A stretch of DNA of 64,000 bases, from NCBI GenBank assembly GCA_050257975.1, contig JBLMXY010000058.1:10274-74273 (forward strand), in the 5' to 3' direction. The position numbers and the translations under genes were made by a program. Below the pieces are notes generated by a model that was not told the origin of the DNA, searched no databases, and saw only the letters and a list, made by a program, of their open reading frames with translations. The DNA is from Acidobacteriota bacterium (GTDB lineage Bacteria > Acidobacteriota > Thermoanaerobaculia > UBA5066 > Gp7-AA6). Positions 4,457-64,000 of this stretch are shown one piece after another (position 1 is the first letter of the stretch; each line of letters starts with the position of its first letter).

Positions 4457-5517
4457 GCGCCGGCAAGCGGCTCGCGCGCCTGGTGCTGCTGCTCGTGCTT
4501 CTCGCCATTGCCGTGGCGCTCTGGTTCGCCAACCAGCTCCAGCGCCCGGAGGCGGTCCCCGGCCCTCCCGCGCAGGTCCTGCTCTACTTTCCTCCGGGCA
4601 CGCCGACCAGCGAGATCTTTCGGCGCCTGGCGGCCGAAGGCGTCATCGGCAACGCTCGCCTGGCCGAGATCTACTACCGGGTTCGCGCGGGCGCGACACC
4701 CCTCCAGGCCGGCGAGTACCGGTTCGATCGTCCGATGTCCATCGACGAGATCATCCGGCGAATGGGCCAGGGGGACGTCGTCCAGCACAAGATCGTCGTC
4801 CCGGAAGGCCTTACCTCGGAGGAGACCTTTCGCCTCTTCCTCGACCAGGGTATCGGCACGCCCGAGGCTTTTCGCCGGGCGCTGGCCGATACCTCCCTTC
4901 TGCCCGGGCTCGCGCAGGGGGCGCCCGACCTGGAGGGCTTTCTCTTCCCCGACACGTACCGGGTGACCAAGTCGACCTCCGCGCGGCACGTCGTCGAGCG
5001 GATGGCCTGGCAGTTCCGGGAGCACTTCGCGCCGCAGTTGCGGGAGCGCGCTCGGGCCCTGGGCCTGACGCCGCGGCAGGCGGTGACGCTCGCGTCGATC
5101 GTCGAGAAGGAGACGTGGCTGCCCCGCGAAGCGCCCGTGGTGGCCGGCGTCTACTTGAACCGCCTCGACCGCGGGATGCGGCTGCAGGCCGACCCGACCG
5201 TCATGTACGCGTTGAAGCGCGACGGCCGGTGGACGGGCCTCCTGCACCGATCGGACTACAACTACGAATCGCCCTACAACACCTACCTCTACGCCGGGCT
5301 CCCGCCGGGTCCGATCTGCAACCCGGGTCTGGCGGCGCTGACCGCGGCCGTGACGCCCTCGCGAACCGAGTTTCTGTACTTCGTCGCCGACGCCAGCGGC
5401 GGACACACGTTCTCCCGGACGTTCGAGCAGCACCTCCAGGCGATCGCCACGAATCGCCGGCAGCGCGCGGAGGCGGCCGCCGCCGGCGAGGAAACCCCGG
5501 TCCCGTCGGCCAATTGA
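4453..5517 (+). CDS. mltG: endolytic murein transglycosylase MltG (YceG family)
   Basis: N-terminal TM helix (LVLLLVLLAIAVALWF). YceG motifs PEGLTSEE, ASIVEKE, VYLNRLDRGMRLQADPTVMY, YNTYLYAGLPPGPICNPG. Confidence 0.9.
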   Translation: MSAGKRLARLVLLLVLLAIAVALWFANQLQRPEAVPGPPAQVLLYFPPGTPTSEIFRRLAAEGVIGNARLAEIYYRVRAGATPLQAGEYRFDRPMSIDEIIRRMGQGDVVQHKIVVPEGLTSEETFRLFLDQGIGTPEAFRRALADTSLLPGLAQGAPDLEGFLFPDTYRVTKSTSARHVVERMAWQFREHFAPQLRERARALGLTPRQAVTLASIVEKETWLPREAPVVAGVYLNRLDRGMRLQADPTVMYALKRDGRWTGLLHRSDYNYESPYNTYLYAGLPPGPICNPGLAALTAAVTPSRTEFLYFVADASGGHTFSRTFEQHLQAIATNRRQRAEAAAAGEETPVPSAN

Positions 5518-38788: not shown

Positions 38789-41269
38789 ATGTGGAAGGCA
38801 CGAGGGATTCTCGCGGCGGAGACGCGCGCGCTGCTCGCCCGGCTCAAGGCGCGCGGCTGGAAAGGGGAAGGCGAGCGGGAGGACCTGCTCCGCCGCCTCG
38901 CGGAGGCCAAGGACCTCGAACCCGAGGACGTCGCGTGGATGGCGACCGAGACGGACCCGGCGGTGCGGCAGGCCGGCCTCGCCCTGCTCAAGCGCTTCCC
39001 CTACGAGCGATCGGCGGCGGCTCTCTTCCCGATGCTCGCGACGCGCTCGGAGGCGCTGCTGCGCGCGGCGATGCAGGCCCTGGAAGCGCTGGCCGGAGCG
39101 TCGTTTCCGGAAAAGATGCTCGGGTACCTCGAGCACCGCGATCCCGCGGTCGTCAACGCGGCGCTCGAGTACGCGCGCAAGAACCCTTCCGACCGCTACC
39201 TGCCCGGCATCGCCAGGGCCCTGCATTCTTCCTCGGCGCCGATCCGTCGCAAGGCCTTCGGCATCGTCGAGGGCGTCGCGTCGCCGCGGGCCGCGACGCT
39301 CGCCCTGCGCACGCTCGAGGACGATGACGAGGAGCTCCGCTTTCGGGCCATCCAGGTCATCGCGAAGTTCCCCGACGAGTCGCACATCGGCCCGCTGCTC
39401 AAGCGCTGCCGCAACGACACGGCCCGTATCCAGGAGGCGGCCCTGGGCGCGCTCACCCCGCTGCTCGCGCGCGCGGACGACCGGTTCAACCGGGAGGTCC
39501 TTCCGCTGCTTTCTGACAACAATCCGAAGGTGCGGCAGCTCGCGGTCAAGATCCTCCAACGCCAGTCCCCAGAGAAAGTCGCCGAAGGCTTCCTGCATGC
39601 CTTTCAGGGCTCCTTCGGAATCGTGCGCGAGCGCGGCATCGAGGCGCTCGGAGCATTCGGCCCGGAGTTCATCCGGGCCTTCCTCGCCCACGACCGGGAC
39701 CCGGACGAGGGAATCGCCGGCCTCGCCTCGGCGATCGCGGTGACCGTGCGCTCCCCCGAGGCCATCCCGCACTGCGTCCGTTACCTGAAGGGGGAGGACT
39801 TCTGGATGCGGGACCGCGCGGCGCAGGCGCTGGCCGAGATCCGCCAGCCGGCCACTCTGCCCCACCTGGTCGCGATGCTCGAGGATCCCGAGTCGAATCT
39901 CTCCGCGGCCAACGCGCTCGGCGTGTGGGGTGCCGGAGAGGCGCTGCCGCCGCTGCTGGCCGCGTACAAGAAGGGCGGCGCCGATCTGCGGCTCGAGATC
40001 CTGGACGCCTTCGCCCGCATCGCGGACCCCCGCGTGGGCCCTCTGCTCGACTCGATCGTGAAGGCGGATCCCGACCCGATCGTCCGCTCCAAGGCGGCGC
40101 GCCTTTCCGCGGCGAAGGCCGGCGGCGCGGCGGCGCTTTCCGCCGCCCCTCCGGCGGCCAGGGAGTTCGCGCCCGTCGATTTCAAGGCCAACCCGAAGCC
40201 CTCGCTCGCCGATCTGCTGCGGCACGCCCGGGCGACCGAGGCTTCGGACCTGCATCTGGCCACGGGAACCCTGCCGCACGTGCGGATCAACGGCGTCCTG
40301 ACGCCGCTGCCGATGCCGGAGGTGACGGCGGAGCAGATGCAGGGGTGGATCACGCCGATCCTCACGCCGGACCGGCGCAAGCGCCTGGAGGCGGAGCGGC
40401 AGCTCGACTTCTGCCACAAGGATCCGGAGCTCGGGCGGTTTCGAACGAACGTCTTCTTCCAGCGCAAGGGGGCCAACGCGGTCTTCCGCGTCATTCCGCT
40501 CGAGGTGCCGACCGTCGCCGAGATCGAGCTGCCCGAGAGCCTCTGGGACCTGACCAACTACTCCCAGGGCCTCGTGCTCGTGACGGGCTCCTCGGGCTGC
40601 GGCAAGACGACCACGCTGGCGGCGCTGATCGACCGGATCAACCAGAGCCGCCCCCTGCACATCCTGACCATCGAGGACCCGATCGAGTACGTCCACCGGG
40701 GAAAGGAGGCGCTCGTCAACCAGCGGGAGGTGCCGTCGCACACCCGCTCCTTCGCCCGGGCGCTGCGGCAGGCGCTTCGCGAAGACCCCGACGTCATTCT
40801 CGTGGGAGAAATGCGGGACCTCGAGACCATCTCGCTCGCCATCACGGCCTCCGAGACAGGGCACCTCGTCTTCGCGACGCTGCACACGACGACCGCCGCC
40901 ACGACCGTGGACCGGGTCATCAACTCCTTCCCTCCGGACCAGCAGGGACAGATCCGCATGATGATCGCCGACTCCCTCAGGGCGGTCGTCTCGCAGGTCC
41001 TGCTGCCCCGACGGGACGGCTCGGGGCGCGTGGCCGCCTTCGAAATCCTGCGCAACACCGCCAACGTCGCCGGACTGATCCGCGAGGGGAAGACCTTCCA
41101 GATCCCGACGGCGATCCAGACCGGGGTCTCGGCGGGGATGATCACGATGGACGGCGCCCTGCTCCAGCTCGTCCAGAACGGCGCGATCGATCCGAGAGTC
41201 GGCTTCGACCACGCGCAGCGCAAGGAGGCCTTCGAGGCGCTGCTCGAAGACTCGGGGAGCGCCGCGTGA
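38789..41269 (+). CDS. PilT-family hexameric ATPase fused to a ~475-aa N-terminal HEAT/armadillo-like repeat domain
   Basis: The C-terminal ~345 aa carries all PilT boxes: Walker A GSSGCGKTT, Asp box ILTIEDPIEYVH, Walker B DPDVILVGEMRD, His box TGHLVFATLHTT, and LIREGKTFQI. The N-terminus has recurrent HEAT-like units (DPAVRQAGLALL, SAPIRRKAFGIV, DEELRFRAIQVI, NPKVRQLAVKIL, DFWMRDRAAQALAEI, DPIVRSKAARL). Confidence 0.85.
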   Translation: MWKARGILAAETRALLARLKARGWKGEGEREDLLRRLAEAKDLEPEDVAWMATETDPAVRQAGLALLKRFPYERSAAALFPMLATRSEALLRAAMQALEALAGASFPEKMLGYLEHRDPAVVNAALEYARKNPSDRYLPGIARALHSSSAPIRRKAFGIVEGVASPRAATLALRTLEDDDEELRFRAIQVIAKFPDESHIGPLLKRCRNDTARIQEAALGALTPLLARADDRFNREVLPLLSDNNPKVRQLAVKILQRQSPEKVAEGFLHAFQGSFGIVRERGIEALGAFGPEFIRAFLAHDRDPDEGIAGLASAIAVTVRSPEAIPHCVRYLKGEDFWMRDRAAQALAEIRQPATLPHLVAMLEDPESNLSAANALGVWGAGEALPPLLAAYKKGGADLRLEILDAFARIADPRVGPLLDSIVKADPDPIVRSKAARLSAAKAGGAAALSAAPPAAREFAPVDFKANPKPSLADLLRHARATEASDLHLATGTLPHVRINGVLTPLPMPEVTAEQMQGWITPILTPDRRKRLEAERQLDFCHKDPELGRFRTNVFFQRKGANAVFRVIPLEVPTVAEIELPESLWDLTNYSQGLVLVTGSSGCGKTTTLAALIDRINQSRPLHILTIEDPIEYVHRGKEALVNQREVPSHTRSFARALRQALREDPDVILVGEMRDLETISLAITASETGHLVFATLHTTTAATTVDRVINSFPPDQQGQIRMMIADSLRAVVSQVLLPRRDGSGRVAAFEILRNTANVAGLIREGKTFQIPTAIQTGVSAGMITMDGALLQLVQNGAIDPRVGFDHAQRKEAFEALLEDSGSAA

Positions 41270-42399
41270 GCGGGTCCCAGGGCCGCCGCGCGCACCGCAT
41301 CGACCGGTTCCTGTCGATCCTGCCGACGTCCAACGGCTCCGACCTCCACCTGGCGGTGGGCTCCCCTCCCATCGTCCGGCTGGACGGCGAGCTCCAGCGC
41401 AGCCGCTTCCGCGCGCTGACCGAGGGGGACTTCGAGAACCTCGTCCGGCCGATCACGCCGGCGCCCCTGTGGGAGGCATACGCGGAGAGCGGCGACGTGG
41501 ACTTCGCCTACCAGATGGGCAGTGAAGGGCGCTTCCGCGTCAACCTGTTCCGGCAGGAGAAGGGCGGCGGCGCGGTCTTCCGCCTGATCCCCTCGCGCAT
41601 CCCCACCTGCGAAGAGCTGGGCCTGCCGGCGCCGATCTCCGCGCTCTACGCGGCCGAGCGGGGCCTGGTGCTCGTGACCGGCCCGACCGGAAGCGGCAAG
41701 TCCACGACACTCGCGGGCATCCTGGATCGGATCAACAAGCGCCTTCCGTACCACATCGTGACGATCGAGGACCCGATCGAGTTCGTCCACGCCAACGACC
41801 GGTCCCTCTTCACCCAGCGTGAGATCGGGCCCGACGTCCCGACGTTCGCCGAGGGAGTCCGCGCCGCGATTCGCGAAGATCCCGACTGCTTGCTGGTGGG
41901 CGAGATGCGCGACCTGGAGACGATGCGGATGGCGCTGACGGCGGCCGAAACGGGACTGCTCGTGTTCGCGACCCTCCACACGAACTCCGCCGCGAAGGCC
42001 GTCGATCGCATCATCGACGCCTTCCCCGCCGCCGAGCAGGAGCAGATCCGGACGGTCCTGGCGGAGGTCCTGCGCGCCGTCGTCGCGCAGCAGCTGCTCC
42101 GAAAGAAGGAGCGAGGGAGGACGGCGGCTTTCGAGATCCTGCTCGGCTCGACCGCGCTGTCCAACGCGATTCGCGAGGGCAAGACCGGAATGATCAACAA
42201 CCAGATCCAGACGGGGCGCGCCAAGGGGATGATCGCGATGGATCAGTCGCTCGCCGAGCTCCTGCGCGCCGGGACCGTCGCCCCGGAGGAGGCCCTCGAC
42301 TGCGCGTTCGACAAGGATTCCCTCAAGACGCTCATCGCGACCCTGCCGAAGGAGCCGCGGCGGGAGCCGGCGGCCGCGCCGAAGGAAGCCTCAGGATGA
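41266..42399 (+). CDS. pilT: twitching-motility ATPase PilT (canonical length)
   Basis: Part of ORF 39925..42399 from GTG 41266 (GTGA overlap with the upstream stop). Motifs SDLHLAVGSPPIVRLDG, GPTGSGKSTTLA, IVTIEDPIEFVH, DPDCLLVGEMRD, TGLLVFATLHTNSA, AIREGKTGMI. Confidence 0.92.
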   Translation: MSGSQGRRAHRIDRFLSILPTSNGSDLHLAVGSPPIVRLDGELQRSRFRALTEGDFENLVRPITPAPLWEAYAESGDVDFAYQMGSEGRFRVNLFRQEKGGGAVFRLIPSRIPTCEELGLPAPISALYAAERGLVLVTGPTGSGKSTTLAGILDRINKRLPYHIVTIEDPIEFVHANDRSLFTQREIGPDVPTFAEGVRAAIREDPDCLLVGEMRDLETMRMALTAAETGLLVFATLHTNSAAKAVDRIIDAFPAAEQEQIRTVLAEVLRAVVAQQLLRKKERGRTAAFEILLGSTALSNAIREGKTGMINNQIQTGRAKGMIAMDQSLAELLRAGTVAPEEALDCAFDKDSLKTLIATLPKEPRREPAAAPKEASG

Positions 42400-54743: not shown

Positions 54744-57401
54744 CTATCTCGAAACGAGAGACGGCCAGTTCATGAGGACCGAGATGGGTGCCGGCTCCGG
54801 GGAGCCGACGTCGATCAGGAACCGCTCTCCATCGGAAGCCACATCCCAGTCGCGGATGACGCCCTCGACGTGGAAGAGCGCCACCGGCGCTCCGGGCGCC
54901 TCCCTGCTCCCGGCGGCGAACGATACCGCCATCACCGCGCCGTCGAGCGCAACGTAGTACAGCTCGCGGCCGTCCCGGCGCCAGCGCGGCAGCGCGCCGC
55001 CTCCGACGGAGACGCGGACCTTCTTGCCCGAGCCGAGCCGCGGGACGACGTAGACCTCCCGCTCTCCGGACTCGTCGGAGATGTAGGCGATCGATTGCCC
55101 GTCGGGCGAAAAGCGCGCCCCCCTCTCTCGAAACCGGGTCGCCGCGACCGTCGCGGGCTTCTGCTCGCCGGAAAGCGGCAGCAGCAGGAGGTTCTCGTCC
55201 ACCTGCGAGTAATACTCCGTGTACACGAGAGACTTGCCGTCCGGGGAGACGTCTTCCGGCTGCTGAACGCCGGGAGCGGCGTAAACGGGAGTCTGCAACC
55301 CGGGCGCTCCGACCGACAGCCGGAAGACGTCGGGCGCGCCGTTCGCGTCGGACCGATAGTAGAGCATTCGCCCGTCCGGAGACCAGACAGGATTCTTTTC
55401 GTCGACGGCGTCGAAGGTCAGCCGCACGGAGACGTTCCGTGCGAGGTCGCGCAGCCAGAGGTCGCGGGTCCCTGTCTTGGGATCCTCGATCTGTAGGGCG
55501 ATCGAGCGGTTGTCCGGCGACAGGCGGACCCCGCTCACGGGAGAGGAAGAATCGATGGTCTCGAGCCGCTTTCCGTTCCGGGAAAACCACGCAACCCGCG
55601 CGGGCCTCGCCCCAGTCTCGTACGCAACCGAGCCTGGTGACGCCGAGAAACCGGCGTTGGCAGGCCCGTAGAACGAGTAGATGCCGTCGGCCAGCGCTAC
55701 GGCTTCTCCTCGCAGCACGAGCCGGGCGGGATCGAAGGGCTGAGCCAGAAGGGTTCCTTGCCGCACATACACCAGGAAGCCGGGCTCCACGTACTCGACG
55801 CGCGACTCGAATGGTCCGATGACCGTCGAGGCCTCCTTCGGATCGAGCGAGCCGACCCGAAGCTCGTGACCGGGGGGAGCCTCGGCGGCTCGGCGAATGG
55901 CGAGGTGGAGGAAGTGCCGTCCGTCGGGAAGGAACTGCGGCCAGAACAGCGCGGTTTCGCCCTTCGCGAGATCGGTCTTGAGGAGAAGTTCGGGCTCTCC
56001 GCCGGCGGCATTGACGCGCCAGATGCCGGAACGCTTGCCCGCGAACTGGGCGAACAGGATCACTCCCTGGCGACTCCACGCGGGCACGCACGCGACGGGC
56101 GCCTCGCAGATGACCTGCGGCGGGCCCCCGGAAGCTTCCATCTTCTTGATCTTCCCGTCGGCAAAGAAACCCAGAAAACGGCCGTCCGGCGACCAGAACG
56201 GGGATGTCGCGCCCTCGGTATTTTCGAGCGGTCTCGCGTCCAACGTGTCGAGCCGGCGCAGGTAGAGACGGTCGCCGCCCGGGCCCCTGCCAACGAAGGC
56301 GAGCCTCTGCCCGTCGGGAGCCAGGGCGATCCTCGTTTCCACCTCGGCTGACAGGAATGCGACGTTCTCGGGCAGGACGACCGAGAACCGCACCGGCCTG
56401 GGCGGGGCTGTCGGAGCGCGCCGTGCCACGATCGTCACGCCGAGGGCCAGGGCGAGCGCGCCGGCAAAGAGCCATGGCGCCACCCGAAACCACGGACGGC
56501 GTGCGGCCGCGACCGAGCGCGGCTGCGCCCCGCTCGCCTCGAAGAGGCGATCTCGCAGATTGGCGAGGTCTCGCGCCAGGTCCCGTGTCGAGGCGTAGCG
56601 GTCCTCGGCACTCTTGGCGAGGCAGCGCTCGACGATCCAGCGCAGCGGCGCCGGGGCGAGAGCGTTGTGCTCCTCGATCGGCGCCGGCTCATCCCGGATG
56701 ATCGCCGACAGGGTTTCGGGCGCGCTGCCGCGCGCGAAGGCCCGGCGGCCCGTTGCGAGCTCGTAGAGAATGGCTCCGAAAGCGAACTGGTCCGACCGAT
56801 AATCGAGCGGCTTGCCGAGGGCTTGCTCCGGCGACATGTACCCGACCGTTCCCATCACGATGCCCGGATGCGTCTCGCCGGACACCGTCGGCGCCTGCGT
56901 GGCCCCGCTCGGGTCCTCGGGCTGGGTCAGCTTGGCGAGGCCGAAGTCGAGGATCTTGACGAAGCCGTCTCCAGACACCATCACGTTTTCTGGCTTGAGG
57001 TCGCGATGCACGATTCCCGCGGCGTGAGCCTTCGCCAGGCCGTCGGCCACCTGCGCGGCGATTCCGAGCACGCGCCGGATCGGTGGCGGGCCATCGGTGA
57101 GGATCTCGCGCAGCGTCTGCCCGGACACCAGCTCCATGGCGATGAAGGCGGCGCCGTCGGCCTGCCCGACGTCGTGGATCATGACGATGTTGGGGTGGTT
57201 GAGCGAGGAGGCCGCCCGCGCCTCCTTCTCGAATCGTTTCAGACGCTGCGGATCGGAAGACACGTCAGAAGGCAGGACCTTGACCGCGACATCGCGCTGC
57301 AGGCGGGTATCCCGTGCCCGGTAGACCTCCCCCATCCCCCCGGCGCCCAGGACGGACAGCACCTCGTACGGACCAAGCCTGGCCCCAATCGGAAGGGTCA
57401 T
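54744..57401 (-). CDS. Ser/Thr protein kinase - TM helix - TolB-like (PD40/WD40-like) beta-propeller (STK1)
   Basis: ORF 54744..58439 trimmed to ATG 57401 ([31 protein letters not shown]...). Motifs [36 protein letters not shown] helix WLFAGALALALGVTIV. C-terminal repeated FSPDG/WSPDG propeller motifs. Confidence 0.88.
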   Translation of the reverse strand: MTLPIGARLGPYEVLSVLGAGGMGEVYRARDTRLQRDVAVKVLPSDVSSDPQRLKRFEKEARAASSLNHPNIVMIHDVGQADGAAFIAMELVSGQTLREILTDGPPPIRRVLGIAAQVADGLAKAHAAGIVHRDLKPENVMVSGDGFVKILDFGLAKLTQPEDPSGATQAPTVSGETHPGIVMGTVGYMSPEQALGKPLDYRSDQFAFGAILYELATGRRAFARGSAPETLSAIIRDEPAPIEEHNALAPAPLRWIVERCLAKSAEDRYASTRDLARDLANLRDRLFEASGAQPRSVAAARRPWFRVAPWLFAGALALALGVTIVARRAPTAPPRPVRFSVVLPENVAFLSAEVETRIALAPDGQRLAFVGRGPGGDRLYLRRLDTLDARPLENTEGATSPFWSPDGRFLGFFADGKIKKMEASGGPPQVICEAPVACVPAWSRQGVILFAQFAGKRSGIWRVNAAGGEPELLLKTDLAKGETALFWPQFLPDGRHFLHLAIRRAAEAPPGHELRVGSLDPKEASTVIGPFESRVEYVEPGFLVYVRQGTLLAQPFDPARLVLRGEAVALADGIYSFYGPANAGFSASPGSVAYETGARPARVAWFSRNGKRLETIDSSSPVSGVRLSPDNRSIALQIEDPKTGTRDLWLRDLARNVSVRLTFDAVDEKNPVWSPDGRMLYYRSDANGAPDVFRLSVGAPGLQTPVYAAPGVQQPEDVSPDGKSLVYTEYYSQVDENLLLLPLSGEQKPATVAATRFRERGARFSPDGQSIAYISDESGEREVYVVPRLGSGKKVRVSVGGGALPRWRRDGRELYYVALDGAVMAVSFAAGSREAPGAPVALFHVEGVIRDWDVASDGERFLIDVGSPEPAPISVLMNWPSLVSR

Positions 57402-57646
57402 CGTCGTTCGCGGCGCGACGAAGTTTCGCGAAGTAACCGAGCGAGACGACTCGCGCCGCGGGAGCCGGAGCGCGGCGAGAAGATCAGGGCCGCGGTCGAG
57501 TCCGCATCCGGACGAGCCGTGGCCCGGCGCCCGAAGGGCGGATCTTCGAGCGAGCGAAGGCGACGGTAGACTTCCCCCATTCCGCCCGCGCCGAGTGGCG
57601 AGAGGATTTCGTAGGGCCCAAGGCGGCTGCCCGCGGGGAGAGCCAT
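57398..57646 (-). other. upstream ORF made of a relic kinase N-terminus (28 codons incl. [10 protein letters not shown]) read into the conserved element; its stop overlaps the STK1 start (ATGA)
   Basis: Track ORF 57398..57646: [28 protein letters not shown]|RLRSLEDPPFGRR... The first 28 aa parallel the STK1 N-terminus [28 protein letters not shown]. The remainder has no kinase similarity. Confidence 0.6.
57402..57567 (-). ncRNA. conserved hairpin-rich non-coding element, copy A (candidate structured leader RNA or miniature inverted-repeat element)
   Basis: 166 nt, differing at 5 positions from copy B (63332..63497) by manual alignment. The substitutions are non-synonymous in both open frames. 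The ends are complementary (CGTCG-CC-TTCGC ... GCGAA-CGACG). Internal hairpins include CGCCC-TTC-GGGCG and GTCCG-GATG-CGGAC. Confidence 0.55.
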
Positions 57647-57669
57647 CGGATTTGGCCAATTGTATGGGC

Positions 57670-57705
57670 AAAGGAAAAGCCCGGAGCCCGCGGAAGGCTC
57701 CGGGC
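57670..57705 (-). terminator. rho-independent terminator after the ABC-operon secreted-protein gene
   Basis: Minus strand reads GCCCGGAGCC-TTCCGCG-GGCTCCGGGC followed by TTTTCCTTT, 26 nt after the stop at 57731. Confidence 0.7.
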
Positions 57706-57730
57706 GCGCGGGAAGAGAGAGAAAGGCGGC

Positions 57731-58702
57731 CTACTTGTCGCGGTGGGCTCGGGCCTCGGCCGAGAGCGACCGGATCAGGTCTCCCGGCAGCTTGCCCGAG
57801 ATCGTGACGCCCTCGTCGTCGCGCGAGACCTGGAACTTCCGGATCACGGCCACCAGCTGCGGCGACTTCTCCTGCGCCGCCAGGCGCCAGGCCGCCGTCA
57901 GGCCGCGCAGGGCGTCCTCGAGCAGGCCTCGCGTCTCCTCGTCGGAGGACAGGCCCGTGGCCTTGACGGCGAGCGCGTCGGACTCGACCGTCGCCTCCAT
58001 CGCGAGGAGCGAGACGGACCGAAGCGCCGAAACGACGCCCGCCGCGGGCCCGTCGCCCCCGTGCAGCGACGCCGCGGCGCGGCGGGACTTCTCGACGTCG
58101 ACGAGGACCCAGGCGGTCGCCGCGGGGTCCACGCGATGGAGCTCGCGGCCAAGGCCCTTGCCCGAGGAGAAGCCCGTTCCGCCGGCGGCGCGGTCCGAGA
58201 GCGCCGCGATGACGGCGGGCTCGCTTCCGGCGACGACGAGGTGGGAGTTCACGAAGGCGACGGATCCCTGCCCGCGCTCGCCGTGAGATTCGTCCTTCAG
58301 AAGAAAGTAATCCCCGACGTTTGCAGATTTTCGAATCGCGCCGCGCTTGCCGACCGCCGCGGCGAGCCGGGCCGGATCGAAGCGCCCCTCGAAGAAGACG
58401 AGCGACCGTCCCCGCCCCTGGTCGGAGGAGGTCGTGCACGCCACGACCGCGTCCACGTCCTCGCGAAGGTTCAAGCCCGCCTCCGCCAGGAAGCGGCCGC
58501 CCTCGCCGTCGGAGCTCAACTTGTCGGCCTCTTCGAACACCCGCAGCTGGAAGGGATTCGAGCGCAAATCCGCGACCCGCACGAATCCGACGGTCGTCGC
58601 GTTCTCCGGCACGAGCGAGAGGGCGCCGCCGGACGCGGCCGCCGCCGGGGCGGCGAGCAGCGCGAGGACCGGCAGCGCGAGCAGAGCTTTCTTCATCATC
58701 AT
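57731..58702 (-). CDS. secreted hypothetical protein, third gene of the ABC-2 operon
   Basis: ORF 57731..58909 trimmed to the ATG triplet run at 58702 (MMMKKALLALPVLALLAAPAAAASG signal). TGATG overlap with the permease stop. Confidence 0.6.
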   Translation of the reverse strand: MMMKKALLALPVLALLAAPAAAASGGALSLVPENATTVGFVRVADLRSNPFQLRVFEEADKLSSDGEGGRFLAEAGLNLREDVDAVVACTTSSDQGRGRSLVFFEGRFDPARLAAAVGKRGAIRKSANVGDYFLLKDESHGERGQGSVAFVNSHLVVAGSEPAVIAALSDRAAGGTGFSSGKGLGRELHRVDPAATAWVLVDVEKSRRAAASLHGGDGPAAGVVSALRSVSLLAMEATVESDALAVKATGLSSDEETRGLLEDALRGLTAAWRLAAQEKSPQLVAVIRKFQVSRDDEGVTISGKLPGDLIRSLSAEARAHRDK

Positions 58703-59556
58703 CAGAAGTCCTTTCTCCGAAAGAGGAAGCTCGAGAGTCCCAGACAAGCGACGCCGAAGGCTCCGGTCGTGGCGAACGTCATCCAGTTGAGGCCCTGGCT
58801 CAGGCGACCCGGCGCGTGCCCCGCCGCGACGAAGGCGACGACCGCCTGCCCGAGCTCGGCGGTCTTCGGCAGGATCCAGTAGAGGGCGTGGACGACCGTG
58901 GCCTGCCACTCCTTCGAGACGGCCGCGGCGATGCGTTCATGCTGTGCGAGGAGTGCCGCGAAGAAGAAGACGCCGTAGGTCGACATGATCGAAACCCCCG
59001 TCGAGGAGGTGACGACACCGACGAGGAAGGCGAAGGCGAGAAGCGCCGCGATCGCGAACAGGATCACGCCGCCTCCGAGCAGGAAGCGGGGATGCACCAC
59101 CTTCGTCTTCCAGATCAGGATCGCCCAGATCGAACCGATCAGGTACACGAGGTTGGCCGCCGCGAGCAGCAGCCCCGCCGCGTAGCGCGAGAGAAGGAGC
59201 GAGACTCGCCCGACGGGGCGCGACAGGTAAAGGTCCACGGTGCCCTTCTCCTGCATTCGCGGCACCAGGTGAGACGTCGCGAAGACGGCGAGGAAGGTGC
59301 CGACGAGGTAAAGAAAGGCGGAGAAGCCCGACTCGAAGCCGAGGACGAGCTTGTCGAGGTCGACCCGGCTGCCCGGCAGGTCCACCGAGCGGCCGAAGAG
59401 CCTGGCGCCCGCCAGCGCGCCGTCCACGATGTCGAGGTTCACGGCGAAGGCGAAGATCAGGATGAAGAGCGTCGAGAGCGCGAAATAGGCGGCGAGCGTC
59501 CAGCGCGCCGCGGCTTCCCGGAAGACGTCCTCGATCGAAGCGGCGAAGGCCTTCAC
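58702..59556 (-). CDS. ABC-2-type transporter permease
   Basis: 284 aa with about 6 hydrophobic segments (LAAYFALSTLFILIFAFAV, FLYLVGTFLAVFA, LLLAAANLVYLIGSIWAILIW, GGVILFAIAALLAFAFLVGVV ...). Lies immediately after the ATPase gene. Confidence 0.72.
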   Translation of the reverse strand: MKAFAASIEDVFREAAARWTLAAYFALSTLFILIFAFAVNLDIVDGALAGARLFGRSVDLPGSRVDLDKLVLGFESGFSAFLYLVGTFLAVFATSHLVPRMQEKGTVDLYLSRPVGRVSLLLSRYAAGLLLAAANLVYLIGSIWAILIWKTKVVHPRFLLGGGVILFAIAALLAFAFLVGVVTSSTGVSIMSTYGVFFFAALLAQHERIAAAVSKEWQATVVHALYWILPKTAELGQAVVAFVAAGHAPGRLSQGLNWMTFATTGAFGVACLGLSSFLFRRKDF

Positions 59557-59557
59557 G

Positions 59558-60508
59558 TCAATTCACCTTGTCTTCGGATTCCGGGCCGGGCTGCACGAGA
59601 TCGACGAAGACGTCTTCGAGCGTCGAGCGGTCGGGCGCGAGCTCCTTCAACGCCCGACCCTCCGCCCGAAGCCGGTCCACCAGGGCGTTGACGTGCGCGA
59701 GGTCGCGCACCGAGAGCACCAGATGGCCGTTGACGCGCTCGACGCCCGCGCCGGTCGCGCGAAAGGCTTCGAGCAGGCGGTCGTCCACCGACTCGGCCAC
59801 CATGCGATAGCGCGCCTCCTGGCGGGTCAGTTCCTCGATCGGACCTTGCCGCACGACGCGCCCCTTGCGGAGGATGGCGACGCGGTTGCAGGTCTGCTCG
59901 ATCTCCGACAGCAGATGCGAGTTGAGAAGGATCGCGCGGCCGCGCGCGGCCTCCTCGCGCAAGAGGTCGCGGATCTCGCGCCGCCCGACCGGATCGACGC
60001 CGTCGGTCGGCTCGTCGAGCAACAGCACGTCCGGATCGTGCACGAGCGCGGCGGCAAGGCCCAGCCGCTGGACCATTCCCTTGGAGAACTTCCTGACGCG
60101 CACATCCGCCCAGTCGGAAAGGCGCACCCGGGCGAGAAGCTCCTCCGTCCGCCGTCGAATCTCGGCCCGGGTCATCCCCGACATCCTTCCGAAGACCGAG
60201 AGCGTCGCCCTCGCCGTGAGATAGCCGGGGAACCGGTGCCCTTCGGGCAGATACCCCACGCGCCGGCGGCTCTCCGGCCTTCCCACGGGGATCCCGAAGA
60301 GCGTCGCCTCGCCCGAGGTCGCATGCGTGAGCCCGAGCAGGATCTTGACCGCGGTCGTCTTTCCAGCGCCGTTGGGGCCCAGCAGGCCAAAGATCTCACC
60401 CGGCTCGACTTGAAGGGACACGCCGTCCAGGGCGAGCACGGAGGTTCCCCCGAAGCGGGACCGGTACCGCTTGGTCAGCGCCGAGACGGAGATCGCACTT
60501 CCACTCAT
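59558..60508 (-). CDS. ABC transporter ATP-binding protein
   Basis: Walker A GPNGAGKTT, Q-loop, signature FSKGMVQRLGLA, Walker B VLLLDEPTDGVD. Confidence 0.92.
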   Translation of the reverse strand: MSGSAISVSALTKRYRSRFGGTSVLALDGVSLQVEPGEIFGLLGPNGAGKTTAVKILLGLTHATSGEATLFGIPVGRPESRRRVGYLPEGHRFPGYLTARATLSVFGRMSGMTRAEIRRRTEELLARVRLSDWADVRVRKFSKGMVQRLGLAAALVHDPDVLLLDEPTDGVDPVGRREIRDLLREEAARGRAILLNSHLLSEIEQTCNRVAILRKGRVVRQGPIEELTRQEARYRMVAESVDDRLLEAFRATGAGVERVNGHLVLSVRDLAHVNALVDRLRAEGRALKELAPDRSTLEDVFVDLVQPGPESEDKVN

Positions 60509-60600
60509 TACCCGTCAATACGGAGAAAAGAGGCTCGATGTTCCTGGCCCGGCGCCGTCACAAACGCCGAGCCGTCGCATATCTCGGCACCCGCGTCCTT

Positions 60601-60767
60601 TCCGCTCGCGGCGCGAGGAGTCTCCCGAGGTAATCGAGGGAGGAGCCTCGCGCCGCGGGAGCGAGCGCGAAGCGAGAGATCAGGCGAGCGGTCGAGGCCG
60701 CAACCGGCCGAGCCGCTTGCCGGTGCGCCCCGCGGGCGCAGGTCCCGAGCGTAGCGCGAGCGACGGT
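60601..60767 (-). ncRNA. conserved hairpin-rich element, diverged copy C, between the STK2 stop and the ABC operon
   Basis: 167 nt, same block order as copies A/B (ACCGTCGC..., TCGnCCGGnTGCGGnCTCGACCGC, CCTGATCT, GCTCCCGCGGCGCGAG, TCGCGCCGCGA). Its first base is the A of the STK2 TGA stop. Helices are kept by compensatory changes. Confidence 0.5.
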
Positions 60768-63331
60768 CAGCGCAGCCCTGTCACGACGAAGAGAGTCGAG
60801 AGCTGCCGCATGATGCTGTAGGCGTACGTCTTCCCGTCCGGCGTCAGGCCGATCGTGTCGATCCCATCGGTGCCCGTCGGATCGGACGGCCCGATCGCGG
60901 CGAGCTTTTCCTGCCGGCCGGTCTCGACATCAAGCCGCCAGATCTCGACGCCCGGGGGCTTCTCCTTGCGCAGGAAGAGCGCCCGGCCGCTCGCGTCCCA
61001 GCGAAGGACGTCGATGACGTCCGGGCCGATCCCGGGAATGGGACGCGGCTCGCCGCCCGCCACAGGATAGAAGAGCCACTTGTGGTCGCGGGTGTTGAGC
61101 AGAGCCGTCTTGCCGTCCGGCGATATCGGGCCGCCGATGCCGAAATTCTCCGGGCCGAACGGGCGGGGCGCGCCTCCCGAGAGATCCTGGACATACATGC
61201 GATAGGGCCTGTCGCCCGATCGAGCCTGAAACAAGAACTGCTTGCTATCGTGTGTCCAGACGAGACCGGGCGCGTATCGCATGCCCTCCATCCGGAATTC
61301 CTTCGACTGTCCGGCGCCCGTCGGAATCAGGAACAACCGATCGGGCGTCGTTCCCGGCTCCGCGATGACCCATTTGCCGTCCGGCGAGAGCGCGAGCGGC
61401 TTCCCGTCGCCCAGGCGCGTCGCGGCCGAGCCATCCGTCCGGCGAAGGTAGATCGATCCCCGCGCGCCGCCTCCTCGGCCCCCCTCCTCGAGGAGGACCG
61501 TGTTCCCATCCTCGGAGAAATCCACGACGCGGGAGAAGTCGAGCCAGGAGAGGTTGGTCTCCGCCGAGCCGACTCGGCCGTACATCGTGGACTCGTGCCA
61601 GTCGTCGACCCGGAGAAGCACGCGGCCGTCTGCGGCGATGTCCTGGACGAGCGTGACGCCGGGAGGCCGCGCGACGACACGAGTCTTTCCCGAGGAGGGC
61701 GACACCGCGCAGAGCATCAGCACGCTCCCGGGCTCGGTGTCCCTCGGGGAGAACCAGATCTCGCCGGTCCGCGGGTGCCAGGCGAGGCCCGCAGCGAAGC
61801 CCCAGCCGGAGCTGACCGTGCGCTTCCTGCCCGTCGCGACGTCGAAGACGACGACCGAGGACGCCTCGTTCGCTCCCCGGAACCTCTCGATCGCGGCGAT
61901 CTCACGGCCGTCGGGCGAAAAGCGGGGAAAATACAGCGCCGCCTGCTCCGCCGGCGCGCCGAGGACCTTGCCGATCGGGAACTCCAGCTTCCCGCGATTG
62001 ATCACGGCGAGCCGCCGGCCGTCCGGCGACCAGTCGGCGAAACGGGTCCCTTCGAGGATCTCGCGCGGCGCACCGCCGGTGAGCGACGCCTCTGCGAGCG
62101 TGAGCGCGTCGCCGCGCAAGAGTCCCACAGCGAGTTTCCCCGAGGAGGAAATCGCGGAGAGGAATGCGTTCGGAAGCGGCAGGGCGGCCGTCTCCGCGCT
62201 GTCCGCTCGGGTCGAGTAGAGCTGAGGCGGCTTGCCCTCCCACTGCGCCGCATAGACGATGGTCTGCCCGTCGGGTGCAAAGCGCGCCTGGTCCATCGTC
62301 CCGCGGCGATACGTGACCGCGCGATAATCGGCGACGGGCGCCGGTCCCCTTCGCGTCGCGAGGACCCCGATCCCGACTCCGGCGGCGAGGGCGAGAACAA
62401 TCGCTGCGAGCCACCTCGAGGGGAGGCGGCGCGGCAGCGTTGCCGCGAACGCCCCGGACGCGCTCGCTTCGGAGATGCCGTCCTTCAACCTCGCGAGGTC
62501 GCGCGAGAGATCCCGCGTCGCGGCGTAGCGTTCGTCGGGATCCTTGGCGAGGCACCGCTCGACGATCCAGCGAAGCGGCACGGGCGTCGACGGCATCGCG
62601 GTCGCGAGGGACTCCGGCTCCTCCCGGAGGATCGCCGTCATCGTCTCCGGCCCGGTCGCCCGCGCGAAGGCCTTCTTGCCCGTCACCATCTCGTAGAGCA
62701 TCGAGCCGAACGAGAACTGGTCCGACCGGAAGTCGAGCGGCTTGCCGAGCGTCTGCTCGGGCGACATATACGACACCGTCCCCACCACCATGCCCGGCTC
62801 GGTCCCGCCCGAGACCGTCGCCACCTGCGTGCCGCCGCTCGAATCCTCCGGCTGAGTCAGCTTGGCCAGCCCGAAGTCCAGGATCTTGGCGAAGCCATCC
62901 CGGGTCACCATGACGTTCTCGGGCTTCAGGTCCCGGTGCACGATGCCGGCGTCGTGCGCCTTGGCGAGCCCTTCGGCCACCTGGGCGGCGACGGCTAGGA
63001 GCTTCTTCTGCGCGAGCGGGCCCTCCGCAAGCATCTGCCGGAGAGTGACGCCCTCGACGAGCTCCATCGCAATGTAAGACGTGGCGCCGGAAGAGCCGAT
63101 GTCGTAGACCGTGACGATGTTGGGGTGGTTGAGAGAGGAGGCCGATTGCGCCTCCTTCTCGAACCGGCGCAGCCGCCGCGCGTCCGCCGAGAGCGCCTCC
63201 GGGAGAACCTTGACCGCGACCACGCGCCCGAGCCGCGTGTCCCGCGCCCGGTACACTTCCCCCATCCCTCCGGCGCCCAGGACGGACAGAACCTCGTACG
63301 GACCGAGCCTGGTCCCGATGGAGAGGGTCAT
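60767..63331 (-). CDS. Ser/Thr protein kinase - TM helix - TolB-like beta-propeller (STK2, paralog of STK1)
   Basis: ORF 60767..63601 trimmed to ATG 63331 ([31 protein letters not shown]...). Motifs [30 protein letters not shown] helix [18 protein letters not shown]. Propeller motifs FAPDG, WSPDG, FSPDG, LSPDG. Confidence 0.88.
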
Positions 63332-63576
63332 CGTCGTTCGCGGCGCGACGAAGCTTCGCGAAGTAACCGAGCGAAACGACTCGCGCCGCGGGAGCCGGAG
63401 CGCGGCGAGAAGATCAGGGCCGCGGCCGAGTCCGCATCCGGACGAGCCGCGGCCCGGCGCCCGAAGGGCGGATCTTCGAGCGAACGAAGGCGACGGTAGA
63501 CTTCTCCCATCCCCCCGGCGCCGAGCGGCGCCAGGAGCTCGTAGGGACGGGGCCGGCTCCCGGCGGCTGATGTCAT
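63328..63576 (-). other. upstream ORF with relic kinase N-terminus preceding STK2; stop overlaps the STK2 start (ATGA)
   Basis: Track ORF 63328..63576: [28 protein letters not shown]|RLRSLEDPPFGRR... Same architecture as 57398..57646. Confidence 0.6.
63332..63497 (-). ncRNA. conserved hairpin-rich non-coding element, copy B
   Basis: 161 of 166 positions identical to copy A, at the same position relative to the kinase start and exactly 5930 nt away. Confidence 0.55.
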
Positions 63577-63716
63577 GGAAGTTGCTCAATTCTATGGGCA
63601 AAGGGGAAGCGAACCACGACAGCTGTTTCTCCCCGAAGGGACCGCGATTCCCGGCCGGAGCGCTGCCGAGAGCTAAACTCCTATTCAGGTCTGGTCTCTC
63701 AGACTACAATAGTCAT

Positions 63717-64000
63717 CATGAAACGCGCTTCGATCTCGGAGCTGAAGGCATCGCTCTCCGCCTATCTCTCGGTCGTCAAGAAGGGAGACGAGGTCCTGGT
63801 CACGGATCGTGGAAGGCCCGTCGCGCGCCTGGTCCCCGCTGCGGACTCGGAGACCGCGAGCGACCGCGTGCGCCGGCTCGCCCGTGAGGGGATCGTCCGC
63901 CCCGCCTCCGGGAGGCTCCCCCGGATCCTTCTCGAGCCGTCCCCAGCGGAGGACTCGGAAGGCAGGGTCCTGGCGAGTCTGCTCGAAGAAAGGCGCGCCG
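63717..64000 (+). CDS. Phd/YefM-family type II antitoxin (runs to or past the window end)
   Basis: Not in the track (edge). Manual translation from ATG 63717: MKRASISELKASLSAYLSVVKKGDEVLVTDRGRPVARLVPAADSE..., the canonical Phd/YefM N-terminus. The frame is still open at 64000. Confidence 0.7.

What the first reader, a model, noticed from the sequence alone, without database searches (positions are those of the whole stretch)
60601..60767. Third, diverged copy of the element heads the ABC-2 operon and keeps its helices through compensatory changes
A 167-nt stretch starts with the A of the STK2 stop codon (TGACCGTCGC...) and ends about 92 nt before the ABC ATPase start. It has the same block order as copies A/B but only about two-thirds identity by eye. 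Shared blocks are ACCGTCGC, TCG-CCGG-TGCGG-CTCGACCGC, CCTGATCT, GCTCCCGCGGCGCGAG and TCGCGCCGCGA. Where the sequence differs, pairing is preserved. GTCCG-GATG-CGGAC (A/B) becomes GGCCG-GTTG-CGGCC (C), a U-A to G-C swap. The terminal helix TTCGC/GCGAA becomes CTCGCG/CGCGAG. The hairpin CGCCC-TTC-GGGCG becomes TGCGCCC-GCG-GGGCGCA. Same strand, same length, and location in a 5' leader all argue for a functional RNA fold rather than a decaying duplicate.
Basis: seen in the sequence. Interest (0 to 1): 0.75.

Follow-up and report, generated by a model that had tools for sequence, protein, structure and literature searches.

The report
Structured interspersed repeat behind stop codons
The 167-nt stretch is a real, well-folded element, but it is one copy of a previously undescribed repeat scattered through Thermoanaerobaculia genomes, usually sitting flush against the end of the gene upstream, and it is not a control leader made for the ABC-2 operon.

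Summary
Copy C (60601-60767, minus strand) starts at the STK2 stop codon, ends 92 nt before the ABC ATPase start, and is 67% identical to copies A and B. On 41 consensus pairs it keeps 8 by double changes.

A pattern scan of reference genomes, followed by HMM and covariance-model searches, found about 100 further copies in 68 loci. All but one of these loci are labelled Acidobacteriota or Thermoanaerobaculia. Covariation is strong: 97.4% of cells pair against 85.4% in shuffles, and 26 pairs carry double changes (0 of 500 shuffles reach this).

The family-level context argues against a dedicated 5' leader:
- Copies lie beside unrelated genes. The 5' end abuts the stop codon of a co-oriented upstream gene, or a tRNA 3' end. 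The 3' side shows no fixed relation to downstream genes.
- A syntenic relative (L123) has no copy, and a closer one (L124) has 1.7 tandem copies at the same spot.
- C resembles copies in other genomes (79-82%) more than A or B.

G-U wobble is no commoner than A-C, so RNA versus single-stranded DNA is unresolved. There is no Rfam, plasmid, phage or literature match.

The best reading is a new non-autonomous structured repeat of the MITE/REP class. Its mobilisation and its RNA role are inferred, not shown.

The parts
60601..60767 (-). Copy C of the repeat. Position 60767 is the variable first model position and is also the last base of the STK2 stop. The conserved core CCGTCGC... starts at 60766.
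   Evidence: 149.9 bits, full-length model match
60661..60761 (-). Domain I of copy C. Long-range helices H1 (60761-60760 / 60662-60661) and H2 (60755-60754 / 60668-60667) and helix H3 (60746-60741 / 60681-60676) enclose hairpin H4 (60740-60737 / 60727-60724) and the long stem H5, which carries the GGCCG-GTTG-CGGCC tip (60721-60707 / 60698-60683).
   Evidence: consensus structure and covariation
60607..60657 (-). Domain II of copy C: a near-invariant 10-bp stem CGCGGCGCGA/TCGCGCCGCG (H6) with an inner stem H7 and a variable tip. The tip is expanded by about 60 nt in some family members.
60767..60769 (-). STK2 stop codon TGA, directly abutting the element core.
   Evidence: The C-terminus ...LFVVTGLR* is native, as shown by comparison with L068 and L074.
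60767..63331 (-). STK2, a Ser/Thr kinase with PD40 beta-propeller repeats. It is the upstream gene whose end copy C abuts.
60509..60600 (-). 92-nt spacer between copy C and the ABC ATPase start. It contains the block TCCGTATTGACGGG (60524-60511), which is also kept in the relative that lacks the element.
58702..60508 (-). ABC ATPase (59558-60508) and ABC-2 permease (58702-59556), downstream of copy C.
57402..57567 (-). Copy A, in the STK1 leader.
63332..63497 (-). Copy B, in the STK2 leader. It is 97% identical to A.
57398..57646 (-). 82-codon upstream ORF A. It consists of a kinase N-terminal fragment ([28 protein letters not shown]) that then reads through copy A. Its TGA overlaps the STK1 ATG (ATGA).
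63328..63576 (-). 82-codon upstream ORF B, with the same architecture in front of STK2.
57319..57571 (-). The 245-nt unit (copy A plus a second kinase N-terminus) bounded by direct repeats GTCTACCG (57571-57564 and 57326-57319). A and B are 85-100% identical inside the unit and 80% or less outside. The paralogous unit lies 5930 nt upstream at 63249-63501.
   Evidence: (D5). The empty site is in L123.

Best explanation
Copy C belongs to a previously undescribed family of interspersed repeats confined, as far as sampled, to Thermoanaerobaculia (Acidobacteriota). The repeat is about 165 nt, GC-rich and multi-helix.

Shown:
- The family has many copies per genome, beside unrelated genes, as single copies, tandem arrays, inverted pairs and partial copies.
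- Presence differs between syntenic genomes.
- The two-domain fold is kept by compensatory change between subfamilies.
- The 5' end typically lies 0-1 nt after the stop codon of a co-oriented upstream gene, or 0-3 nt after a tRNA 3' end.

Inferred:
- It is a non-autonomous mobile element of the MITE/REP class, moved in trans by an unidentified enzyme that recognises the fold.
- It prefers A/T-containing spots, which in a 70% GC genome are largely stop codons. Selection then keeps only insertions that leave the stop intact, and this also fixes the orientation.
- Copy C was inserted behind STK2 in this lineage. It is co-transcribed as a stable structure in the STK2 3' trailer or intercistronic region, with at most incidental, polar effects on the ABC-2 operon.
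- Copies A and B are a derived state. A 245-nt unit (repeat plus kinase 5' coding segment) has spread between kinase paralogues through homology in the conserved N-terminus. This left the original start as an upstream ORF that is translationally coupled (ATGA) to the kinase.
For: Family and distribution: the genome scan plus nhmmer gave 105 hits in 68 of 120 loci, all but one labelled Acidobacteriota or Thermoanaerobaculia. The other pattern hits lack the element. cmsearch gave 97 matches, 74 of them above 100 bits.

Copy number and arrangement: at least 19 copies lie in the sampled loci of one MAG (L031, L040, L072, L086, L087, L098). Tandem arrays and inverted pairs occur.

Neighbours are unrelated and no transposase recurs.

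Structure.

5' junction: 25 of 74 copies have TAA, TAG or TGA ending at model position 1, and 9 more have it 1 nt upstream. Upstream coding sequence is co-oriented in 34 copies against 4. In tandem-gene contexts 33 copies are sense and 7 antisense, and 32 of 57 co-oriented upstream genes end at distance 0, whereas the 3' end abuts nothing. tRNA ends are shown.

DNA-level target preference: copies away from genes often have T/A-rich 5' flanks. An inverted partial copy in L087 abuts a TAA that is the complement of a promoter -10 box.

Presence and absence: L123 is syntenic and empty. L124 has 1.7 copies at the C site. Different subfamilies sit behind orthologous genes.

Origin of C: it is closer to foreign copies than to A/B.

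The 245-nt unit.
Against: - No terminal inverted repeat is supported by covariation, and no target-site duplication was found.
- No autonomous parent or linked transposase was seen.
- In-frame stops are about twice as frequent at the junction as a plain 'any TAA/TAG/TGA in the intergenic space' model predicts (21 observed against 11.5 expected of 51, p about 2e-4).
- tRNA ends (CCA) are not A/T-rich, so target preference plus selection may not be the whole story.
- Conservation is spread over the whole element rather than confined to the ends. One orthologous pair keeps the element better than its flanks (94.6% against 87% and 80%). Both points hint at a host-level function.
- The sample was ascertained with a pattern inside the element, and gene calls rest on a GC3 heuristic.
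Confidence: 0.6

Rival explanations
1. Host 3'-end RNA module. The fold acts in the transcript of the upstream gene as a terminator-like, 3'-protecting, processing or termination-sensing structure. A ribosome stopping at the stop codon would melt its first 12 nt or so. Its position flush with stop codons and tRNA ends would then be selected, and the spread between loci would be secondary.
For: Sense orientation and zero-distance abutment at the 5' end only. Direct adjacency to tRNA-Lys and tRNA-Pro 3' ends. In-frame stops exceed the triplet-target null model. Conservation is distributed along the element, and one orthologous pair is better conserved than its flanks. In kinase leaders, an upstream ORF reads through the element and stops at ATGA or GTGA on the kinase start in 7 of 8 cases. 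From my own knowledge, REP elements within 15 nt of a stop codon in E. coli were reported to stall terminating ribosomes.
Against: No U-tract follows either hairpin. G-U is not favoured over A-C, so resident copies show no RNA signature. The forward strand is pyrimidine-rich in its unpaired parts. A syntenic relative does without the element. About 40 of 74 copies are not flush with a gene.
Confidence: 0.2
2. Cis-regulatory 5' leader (riboswitch- or attenuator-like) that controls the ABC-2 operon and the kinases.
For: A conserved fold with covariation. Copy C lies 92 nt upstream of the ABC start on the same strand. Copies A and B, and similar copies elsewhere, lie directly in front of kinase starts.
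Against: Downstream genes are unrelated. In 21 of 54 classified cases the downstream gene is convergent, and distances range from 0 to 735 nt. The anchor is the upstream gene end. The orthologous operon in L123 lacks the element but keeps its own proximal upstream block. Tandem arrays of up to 5 copies do not fit a sensor.
Confidence: 0.08
3. RNA-mediated (retroposon-like) element. The element RNA is released at its exact 5' end from the co-transcript, by self-cleavage or by a host RNase. Its cDNA then becomes joined to the 3' ends of other RNAs (tRNA-CCA, truncated mRNAs) by template switching, and the product recombines into the genome.
For: A sharply defined 5' end with variable 3' extensions. 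5' junctions to tRNA 3' ends and to tRNA fragments covering exactly positions 49-76. Junctions at several points inside kinase N-termini, each followed by a complete N-terminus. A cDNA with two homology arms would produce this arrangement.
Against: No reverse transcriptase or ribozyme was identified. No Rfam ribozyme matches. The L087 junction at a non-coding TAA and the T/A-rich flanks point to a DNA target. The tRNA fragments can be explained by a separate small insertion into the tRNA. The kinase units can be explained by ordinary homologous recombination.
Confidence: 0.07
4. Chance resemblance or alignment artefact of GC-rich sequence.
For: The window is 69.6% GC. Single-sequence folding z-scores on the gene strand are modest (-2.0 to -4.0).
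Against: nhmmer E-values range from 1e-13 to 1e-50. CM scores exceed 100 bits for 74 copies. Both shuffle and slide controls fail to reach the observed covariation.
Confidence: 0.01

Closest known systems
Bacterial MITEs that are co-transcribed with neighbouring genes (Neisseria Correia elements, enterobacterial ERIC/IRU); comparison from my own knowledge
   Same: 100-170 nt, non-coding and highly structured. Dozens of copies lie beside unrelated genes, with insertion polymorphism between relatives. Correia elements prefer A/T targets (TA).
   Different: No supported terminal inverted repeats and no target-site duplication. The fold is multi-branched, with conservation along its whole length. 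There is a strong sense bias and flush contact with stop codons.
REP/BIME/REPIN elements and RAYT transposases, including CGTC- and GTAG-tagged REPs (PMC3733652)
   Same: Extragenic palindromic repeats at gene 3' ends that form dimers and clusters. The CGTC class also lacks a linked transposase. The element starts with C-CGTC-GC.
   Different: REPs are single hairpins of 20-40 nt with stems of 5-13 bp (PMC3733652, read). This element is 165 nt with seven helices, and no flanking RAYT gene was seen.
IS200/IS605-derived miniature elements (PATEs); comparison from my own knowledge
   Same: No inverted terminal repeats and no duplication. The two ends differ and each has a hairpin nearby. Insertion is oriented, next to a short A/T-containing motif on the 5' side. 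The structure would act in one DNA strand.
   Different: The 5' flank motif is weak (T 49%, A 51%, A 51%). No TnpA was identified. tRNA-CCA junctions do not fit a single target motif.
Mycobacterial interspersed repetitive units (MIRUs); comparison from my own knowledge
   Same: Intergenic repeats in operons, in the sense orientation and often in tandem arrays. Their small reading frames overlap the stop and start codons of the neighbouring genes. The parallel here is ATGA or GTGA coupling in kinase leaders, and arrays with periods of 203-226 nt.
   Different: MIRUs are 40-100 bp, and no comparable conserved fold is known for them. Most copies of this element follow a stop codon and are not translated.
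Integron attC sites; comparison from my own knowledge
   Same: A structured, strand-specific site that begins at or within the stop codon of the preceding ORF, in the sense orientation.
   Different: attC is a single imperfect hairpin with RYYYAAC/GTTRRRY cores and little sequence conservation, and it occurs in cassette arrays. None of these features is seen here.

Membership tests
Any Rfam 15 family (riboswitches, ribozymes, Acido-1, Acido-Lenti-1, HEARO, IS605-orfB and others) | A covariance-model match at or near the gathering score | tested here: not met
   No match at gathering thresholds in the window. No match overlapping any copy at E<=5 in 56800-64000.
MITE (classical) | Small, non-coding, multi-copy, with insertion polymorphism | tested here: met
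   About 100 copies in 68 loci. L123 is empty and L124 is filled at the C site.
MITE (classical) | Terminal inverted repeats | tested here: not met
   The only end complementarity (CCGT / A.CGG) pairs in 66.9% of cells, against 66.0% in shuffles, with no covariation.
MITE (classical) | Target-site duplication | tested here: not met
   No consistent direct repeat flanks the copies. TA at both ends appears in only one subfamily.
MITE (classical) | An autonomous parent IS with the same ends | tested here: inconclusive
   No split copies flank an ORF, and no transposase recurs in the 8-kb loci. Whole genomes could not be scanned.
REP/REPIN | A single palindrome of 20-40 nt (or an inverted doublet) with a GTAG or CGTC tag and a linked RAYT | tested here: not met
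   165 nt with seven helices. Definition taken from PMC3733652.
IS200/IS605-type miniature element | No TIR or TSD, hairpins near both ends, and a conserved 4-5-nt target on the 5' side | tested here: inconclusive
   The absence of TIR and TSD and the presence of end-proximal hairpins are met. The 5' flank motif is only about 50% T-A-A.
IS200/IS605-type miniature element | A Y1 (HUH) transposase in the same genomes | not tested
Intrinsic terminator | A GC-rich hairpin followed by a U-tract | tested here: not met
   The 3' hairpin is followed by A(A/C/G)C..., with no T run. The scan finds no terminator in any copy.
Cis-regulatory leader or riboswitch | A constant position upstream of a coherent set of downstream genes | tested here: not met
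   Downstream genes are unrelated, convergent in 21 of 54 cases, and 0-735 nt away.
Structured functional RNA in general | Covariation, with G-U tolerated over A-C on the transcribed strand | tested here: inconclusive
   Covariation is strong. G-U against A-C is 17 against 21 outside one helix whose register is ambiguous. The reverse complement folds better in 72 of 72 copies, but this tracks purine content.
MIRU-like coupling repeat | A reading frame through the repeat whose ends overlap the stop and start codons of the neighbouring genes | tested here: inconclusive
   Met in kinase leaders: ATGA or GTGA in window A and B, L007, both L068 copies, L074 and L122. Not met for the majority of copies, which follow a stop codon.
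Integron attC | A single imperfect hairpin with R''/R' core sites, in cassette arrays | tested here: not met
   The fold is multi-branched with conserved sequence, and the neighbours are housekeeping genes.

The most novel reading that the evidence does not exclude
The element is a bacterial SINE-like or otherwise end-seeking mobile element, and its insertion point is set by the 3' end of a gene product rather than by a DNA motif. The product end would be the stop codon of an mRNA or the CCA end of a tRNA. One route would be release of the element RNA at its exact 5' boundary, followed by cDNA template switching onto RNA 3' ends. The chimeric cDNA would then recombine into the genome through homology. 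That would also explain the kinase-fragment / element / full-kinase units.
Probability: 0.07. Interest if true: 0.9.

Novelty: new variant of a known kind. Interest (0 to 1): 0.55.

Why it matters
If correct, this is a new, abundant, strongly structured repeat family in a poorly studied class of soil bacteria. Three practical consequences follow.

1. It is a likely source of annotation error. Gene callers could extend ORFs through it, and 82-codon 'genes' appear in kinase leaders.
2. It reshapes gene starts. The 245-nt unit turns the original kinase start into a coupled upstream ORF, and recombination between its direct repeats could remove it again.
3. Its flush contact with stop codons and tRNA ends, without inverted repeats or duplications, does not match any mobilisation mechanism I could assign. 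It is therefore a tractable case for finding a new target-choice rule or a host 3'-end function.

For the scan itself, the lesson is that the 'third diverged copy' is an independent insertion of a family member. It is not evidence for a regulon linking the kinases and the ABC-2 transporter.

Tried and rejected
- **Rfam** at gathering and permissive thresholds gave nothing.
- **Viral contig scan** with the hairpin pattern gave one unrelated hairpin.
- **Plasmid and phage blastn** gave no match.
- **Literature searches** for Acidobacteria MITEs, for REP elements near stop codons and for Thermoanaerobaculia repeats found nothing that describes this element. The CGTC/GTAG REP paper describes much smaller hairpins.
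- **Strand assignment by G-U against A-C** was rejected as evidence. The apparent excess (82 against 23) comes from one inner helix with an ambiguous register, and without it the count is 17 against 21.
- **Strand assignment by folding energy.** The reverse complement is more stable in 72 of 72 copies, but the forward strand is pyrimidine-rich in unpaired columns, so this is a composition effect.
- **Terminal closing helix or TIR**: no support.
- **TA, TNA or YTAR target duplications** were looked for by eye in sorted 3' flanks and are not consistent.
- **Truncated copies as ends of an autonomous element.** They turned out to be full copies with an expanded tip of domain II, or plain partial copies.
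- **Recurrent neighbouring gene or transposase**: none.
- **Protein-coding reading of the element** was rejected as a general explanation. Most copies follow a stop codon, copy C enters the element in a different frame from A/B, and the variation is pairwise-compensatory.

Full report
**1. The observation**

The element lies on the minus strand. Read 5'->3' it runs 60767->60601. Its first base is the last base of the STK2 stop codon (TGA, 60769-60767). Its last conserved bases (…TCGCGCCGCGAGCGGA) end 92 nt before the ATG of the ABC ATPase at 60508.

Pfam confirms the neighbouring genes:
- STK2 (60767-63331) and STK1 (54744-57401) are Pkinase + PD40 proteins.
- 59558-60508 is an ABC ATPase.
- 58702-59556 is an ABC-2 permease.

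Copies A (57567->57402) and B (63497->63332) align with C in the same block order and share the quoted invariant blocks. An HMM built from the three copies finds only these three in the 64-kb window, with E-values of 5e-38 to 6e-50. C is 67.5% and 66.9% identical to A and B.

**2. A large family, not a local triplet**

I scanned one genome per species with two blocks shared by A, B and C (CCTGATC N15-25 CCCGCGGCGCGAG). All but one of those loci are labelled Acidobacteriota or Thermoanaerobaculia. The other pattern hits, from other phyla, carry no element.

A covariance model built from 65 non-redundant copies recovers 97 matches in the first 100 sources, 74 of them above 100 bits. Single MAGs contribute many loci. 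The six sampled loci of one MAG hold at least 19 copies.

The copies occur in several arrangements:
- Tandem arrays: L076 has 5 copies with a period of 214 nt, L113 has 3 with a period of 203, and L072 has 4 with a period of 226. These are ordinary tandem duplications that include 40-60 nt of 3' flank.
- Convergent pairs (L009, L023, L090, L105).
- Partial copies.
- Copies with a tip of the 3' hairpin expanded by about 60 nt.

The best hits of the window's ABC ATPase are named Thermoanaerobaculia, so the window belongs to this class.

There is no Rfam match, no plasmid or phage match, and no description in the searchable literature.

**3. The fold is real**

RNAalifold on 65 copies predicts 41 pairs in seven helices, and 26 pairs have sequences in which both sides changed while pairing is kept. 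The architecture has two domains:
- Domain I is closed by two short long-range helices and a GGGATC/GATCCC helix.
- Domain II is a near-invariant 10-bp stem with an inner stem and a variable tip.

The controls are clear:

| Measure | Observed | Shuffled | Shuffles reaching observed |
|---|---|---|---|
| Cells forming a standard pair | 97.4% | 85.4% | 0/500 |
| Pairs with a change on both sides | 26 | 14.3 | 0/500 |
| Covariation score | 0.305 | 0.094 | 0/500 |

Sliding the 3' partners by 1-3 columns gives 30-45% pairing and covariation scores of 0.03-0.07.

The third, a 'terminal helix', overlaps the invariant 3' stem, and a closing helix between the two ends has no support (66.9% paired against 66.0% shuffled).

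**4. Which strand folds, and as what**

This could not be settled.
- In the consensus helices G-U outnumbers A-C by 82 to 23. But 65 of those G-U cells come from the inner 3' stem, whose register is ambiguous. In copy C that stem is a clean CUCCC/GGGAG helix. Without it the count is 17 against 21.
- The helices are almost purely Watson-Crick, and many switches are GC<->CG.
- The reverse complement is more stable in 72 of 72 copies, by 8.6 kcal/mol on average. However, the gene-sense strand is pyrimidine-rich in unpaired columns (C 2571, T 1416, G 1465, A 712), which by itself favours the complement in the energy model.

The structure is therefore under selection in the lineages that give rise to new copies. 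Resident copies show no RNA-specific signature, and single-stranded DNA is as good a candidate as RNA.

**5. Where the copies sit**

Model position 1 is variable (A 38, G 15, C 12, T 9), while positions 2-8 (CCGTCGC or ACGTCGC) are nearly invariant. The core therefore starts at position 2.

Stop codons at the 5' junction:
- In 25 of 74 full-length copies the three bases ending at position 1 are TAA, TAG or TGA. In 9 more the stop lies one base further upstream.
- A GC3-based coding test shows the 150 nt upstream to be coding on the same strand in 34 copies and on the other strand in 4.
- With a wider scan, tandem-gene contexts give 33 sense against 7 antisense. Of 57 co-oriented upstream genes, 32 end at distance 0 from the element. 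The element's 3' end abuts nothing in particular.
- The stop is the native one. STK2 ends …LFVVTGLR*, like …LFVVEGLK* in front of an element in L068 and …VVEGLE* without an element in L074.

tRNA ends at the 5' junction:
- The element directly follows tRNA-Lys in L084 (0 nt) and tRNA-Pro in L055 (2 nt).
- In L039, L031 and L029 it follows a tRNA-Ala 3' fragment (positions 49-76) that lies 140-190 nt downstream of the intact tRNA.

Other context:
- Neighbouring genes are unrelated (uvrA-like, hflX-like, ABC permeases, kinases and others), and no transposase recurs.
- Copies away from genes often have T/A-rich 5' flanks (…TTTTA|, …TTTTT|, …ATTATA|).
- An inverted partial copy in L087 abuts a TAA that is the complement of a kinase promoter's TTACAAT.

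This points to a DNA-level preference for A/T-containing spots, which in a 70% GC genome are largely stop codons. A null model in which every TAA, TAG or TGA in the intergenic space is equally likely predicts 11.5 flush copies out of 51, whereas 21 are seen (p about 2e-4). Target preference plus selection explains much of the pattern, but perhaps not all of it, and it does not explain the tRNA-CCA junctions.

**6. The ABC-2 locus itself**

I looked up orthologues of the ABC ATPase in their contigs.
- **L123** (86% amino-acid identity, on a 4.28-Mb contig) has the same order kinase-kinase-ABC-permease-ORF-kinase. It has no element anywhere in 10 kb.
- **L124** (95% identity) has one full and one partial tandem copy, starting exactly at the upstream gene's stop.
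- **L122** (84%) has none in front of the ABC gene.

The block TCCGTATTGACGGG, just upstream of the ABC start, is kept with and without the element. Copy C is closer to copies in other genomes (79-82%) than to A or B.

C is thus a lineage-specific insertion of another subfamily behind STK2. The operon's own proximal signals lie downstream of it. Whether STK2 and the ABC genes are co-transcribed through the element is unknown.

**7. Copies A and B, and the kinase leaders**

In A and B the element lies between two kinase N-termini. The layout is:
- a promoter-like TACAAT or TAGAAT;
- about 15 nt further on, an ATG and a 28-codon kinase N-terminus ending …GEVYR;
- the element;
- a second ATG with a full kinase.

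The first ORF (82 codons) reads through the element and stops at a TGA that overlaps the kinase ATG (ATGA).

L123 shows the empty state: TAGAAT, then ATG, then an uninterrupted N-terminus running on past GEVYRARD. The inserted segment is 245 nt (the element plus an 82-nt N-terminal coding segment) and is bounded by GTCTACCG direct repeats.

A and B are 95-100% identical across the element and 85-92% across the next 80 nt. They are only 37-82% identical upstream and 55-90% (mostly 80% or less) downstream. The 245-nt unit has therefore been exchanged recently between STK1 and STK2.

The same architecture recurs in L007, L026, L068 (twice), L074 and L122, with junctions at different points of the N-terminus. 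The fragment-to-N-terminus identity ranges from about 70% to about 94%. In 7 of 8 cases the upstream ORF ends at ATGA or GTGA on the kinase start. In L026 everything is one open frame.

The simplest reading, which is an inference, is spread by homologous recombination in the highly conserved kinase 5' coding region. The direct repeats would allow loss of the unit again. How the first such junction arose is open; candidates are an adjacent deletion from an upstream tandem kinase or a cDNA route.

**8. What it is and how it probably works**

Shown: a new family of structured interspersed repeats, specific to one bacterial class, with insertion polymorphism and with 5' ends flush with gene ends.

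Inferred: a non-autonomous mobile element whose fold is the substrate of an unidentified trans-acting enzyme. It lands at A/T-containing sites and survives where it leaves the stop codon intact. It then rides in the 3' trailer of the upstream gene.

It differs from classical MITEs (no inverted repeats, no duplication), from REPs (size, complexity), from attC sites and from intrinsic terminators. It shares individual traits with IS200/IS605-type miniature elements and with MIRUs.

A host function at RNA 3' ends is the main rival. A dedicated ABC-2 leader is unlikely. An RNA-mediated, end-seeking mechanism is the most novel reading that is not excluded.

**9. Caveats**
- The family was ascertained with a pattern inside the element, so those two blocks are invariant by construction.
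- Copies are not independent, because they include arrays, orthologues and paralogues.
- Coding calls use a GC3 heuristic.
- MAG contigs can be mis-binned. The single 'Alphaproteobacteria' locus, L092, is probably such a case.

Noticed in passing
window 57319-57646 and 63249-63576 (minus strand): Each kinase gene is preceded by its own original start, which has become an 82-codon upstream ORF. That ORF runs through the repeat and ends at ATGA on the kinase start. The 245-nt inserted unit is bounded by GTCTACCG direct repeats, and A and B are far more similar inside it than in the flanks.
   Followed up: yes
L039 3815-4069; L031 7099-6857 (minus strand); L029: An intact tRNA-Ala is followed by about 140-190 nt that contain an inverted copy of its T-arm. 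A direct copy of tRNA positions 49-76 comes next, and then the repeat. This looks like a separate small insertion into the tRNA 3' end. Each fragment matches its own genome's tRNA.
   Followed up: partly
L072 (~6420-6470 and repeats), L087, L098, L040: A second small palindromic repeat, AACCCTCACCCCGCCCTCTCCCTCGGGGAGAGGG(G/A)GA, lies just 3' of several copies. Different repeat families therefore cluster in the same intergenic spots.
   Followed up: no
L090, L023, L105: A tail-to-tail pair of elements, together with the ~80 nt between them, is conserved (87-91%) while the outer flanks are unrelated (58-62%). The pair behaves as a composite unit.
   Followed up: partly
L123 ~4440-4475: The kinase-ABC intergenic region of the element-free relative contains a remnant of a kinase C-terminus (…STLFVVSGLK*) that resembles the STK2 end. 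This suggests a deletion of a tandem kinase there.
   Followed up: no
L082, downstream of 4087 (minus strand): The element is followed by at least eight tandem copies of the heptamer CTTAGAC.
   Followed up: no
window 33655-34600: A long run of degenerate 6/18/36-nt periodic repeats (GTCGGCGTGTTGGACGGCGTGAACGTCCGC…), presumably a repetitive coding region.
   Followed up: no
window 40567-40696 and 41661-41790: A 130-nt direct repeat at 76% identity, with copies 1094 nt apart.
   Followed up: no
window 57679-57705 (minus strand): A clean terminator-like hairpin with a T-run lies between the unannotated 392-codon ORF (57731-58909) and the STK1 promoter-like TACAAT. STK1 therefore probably starts its own transcript.
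   Followed up: no
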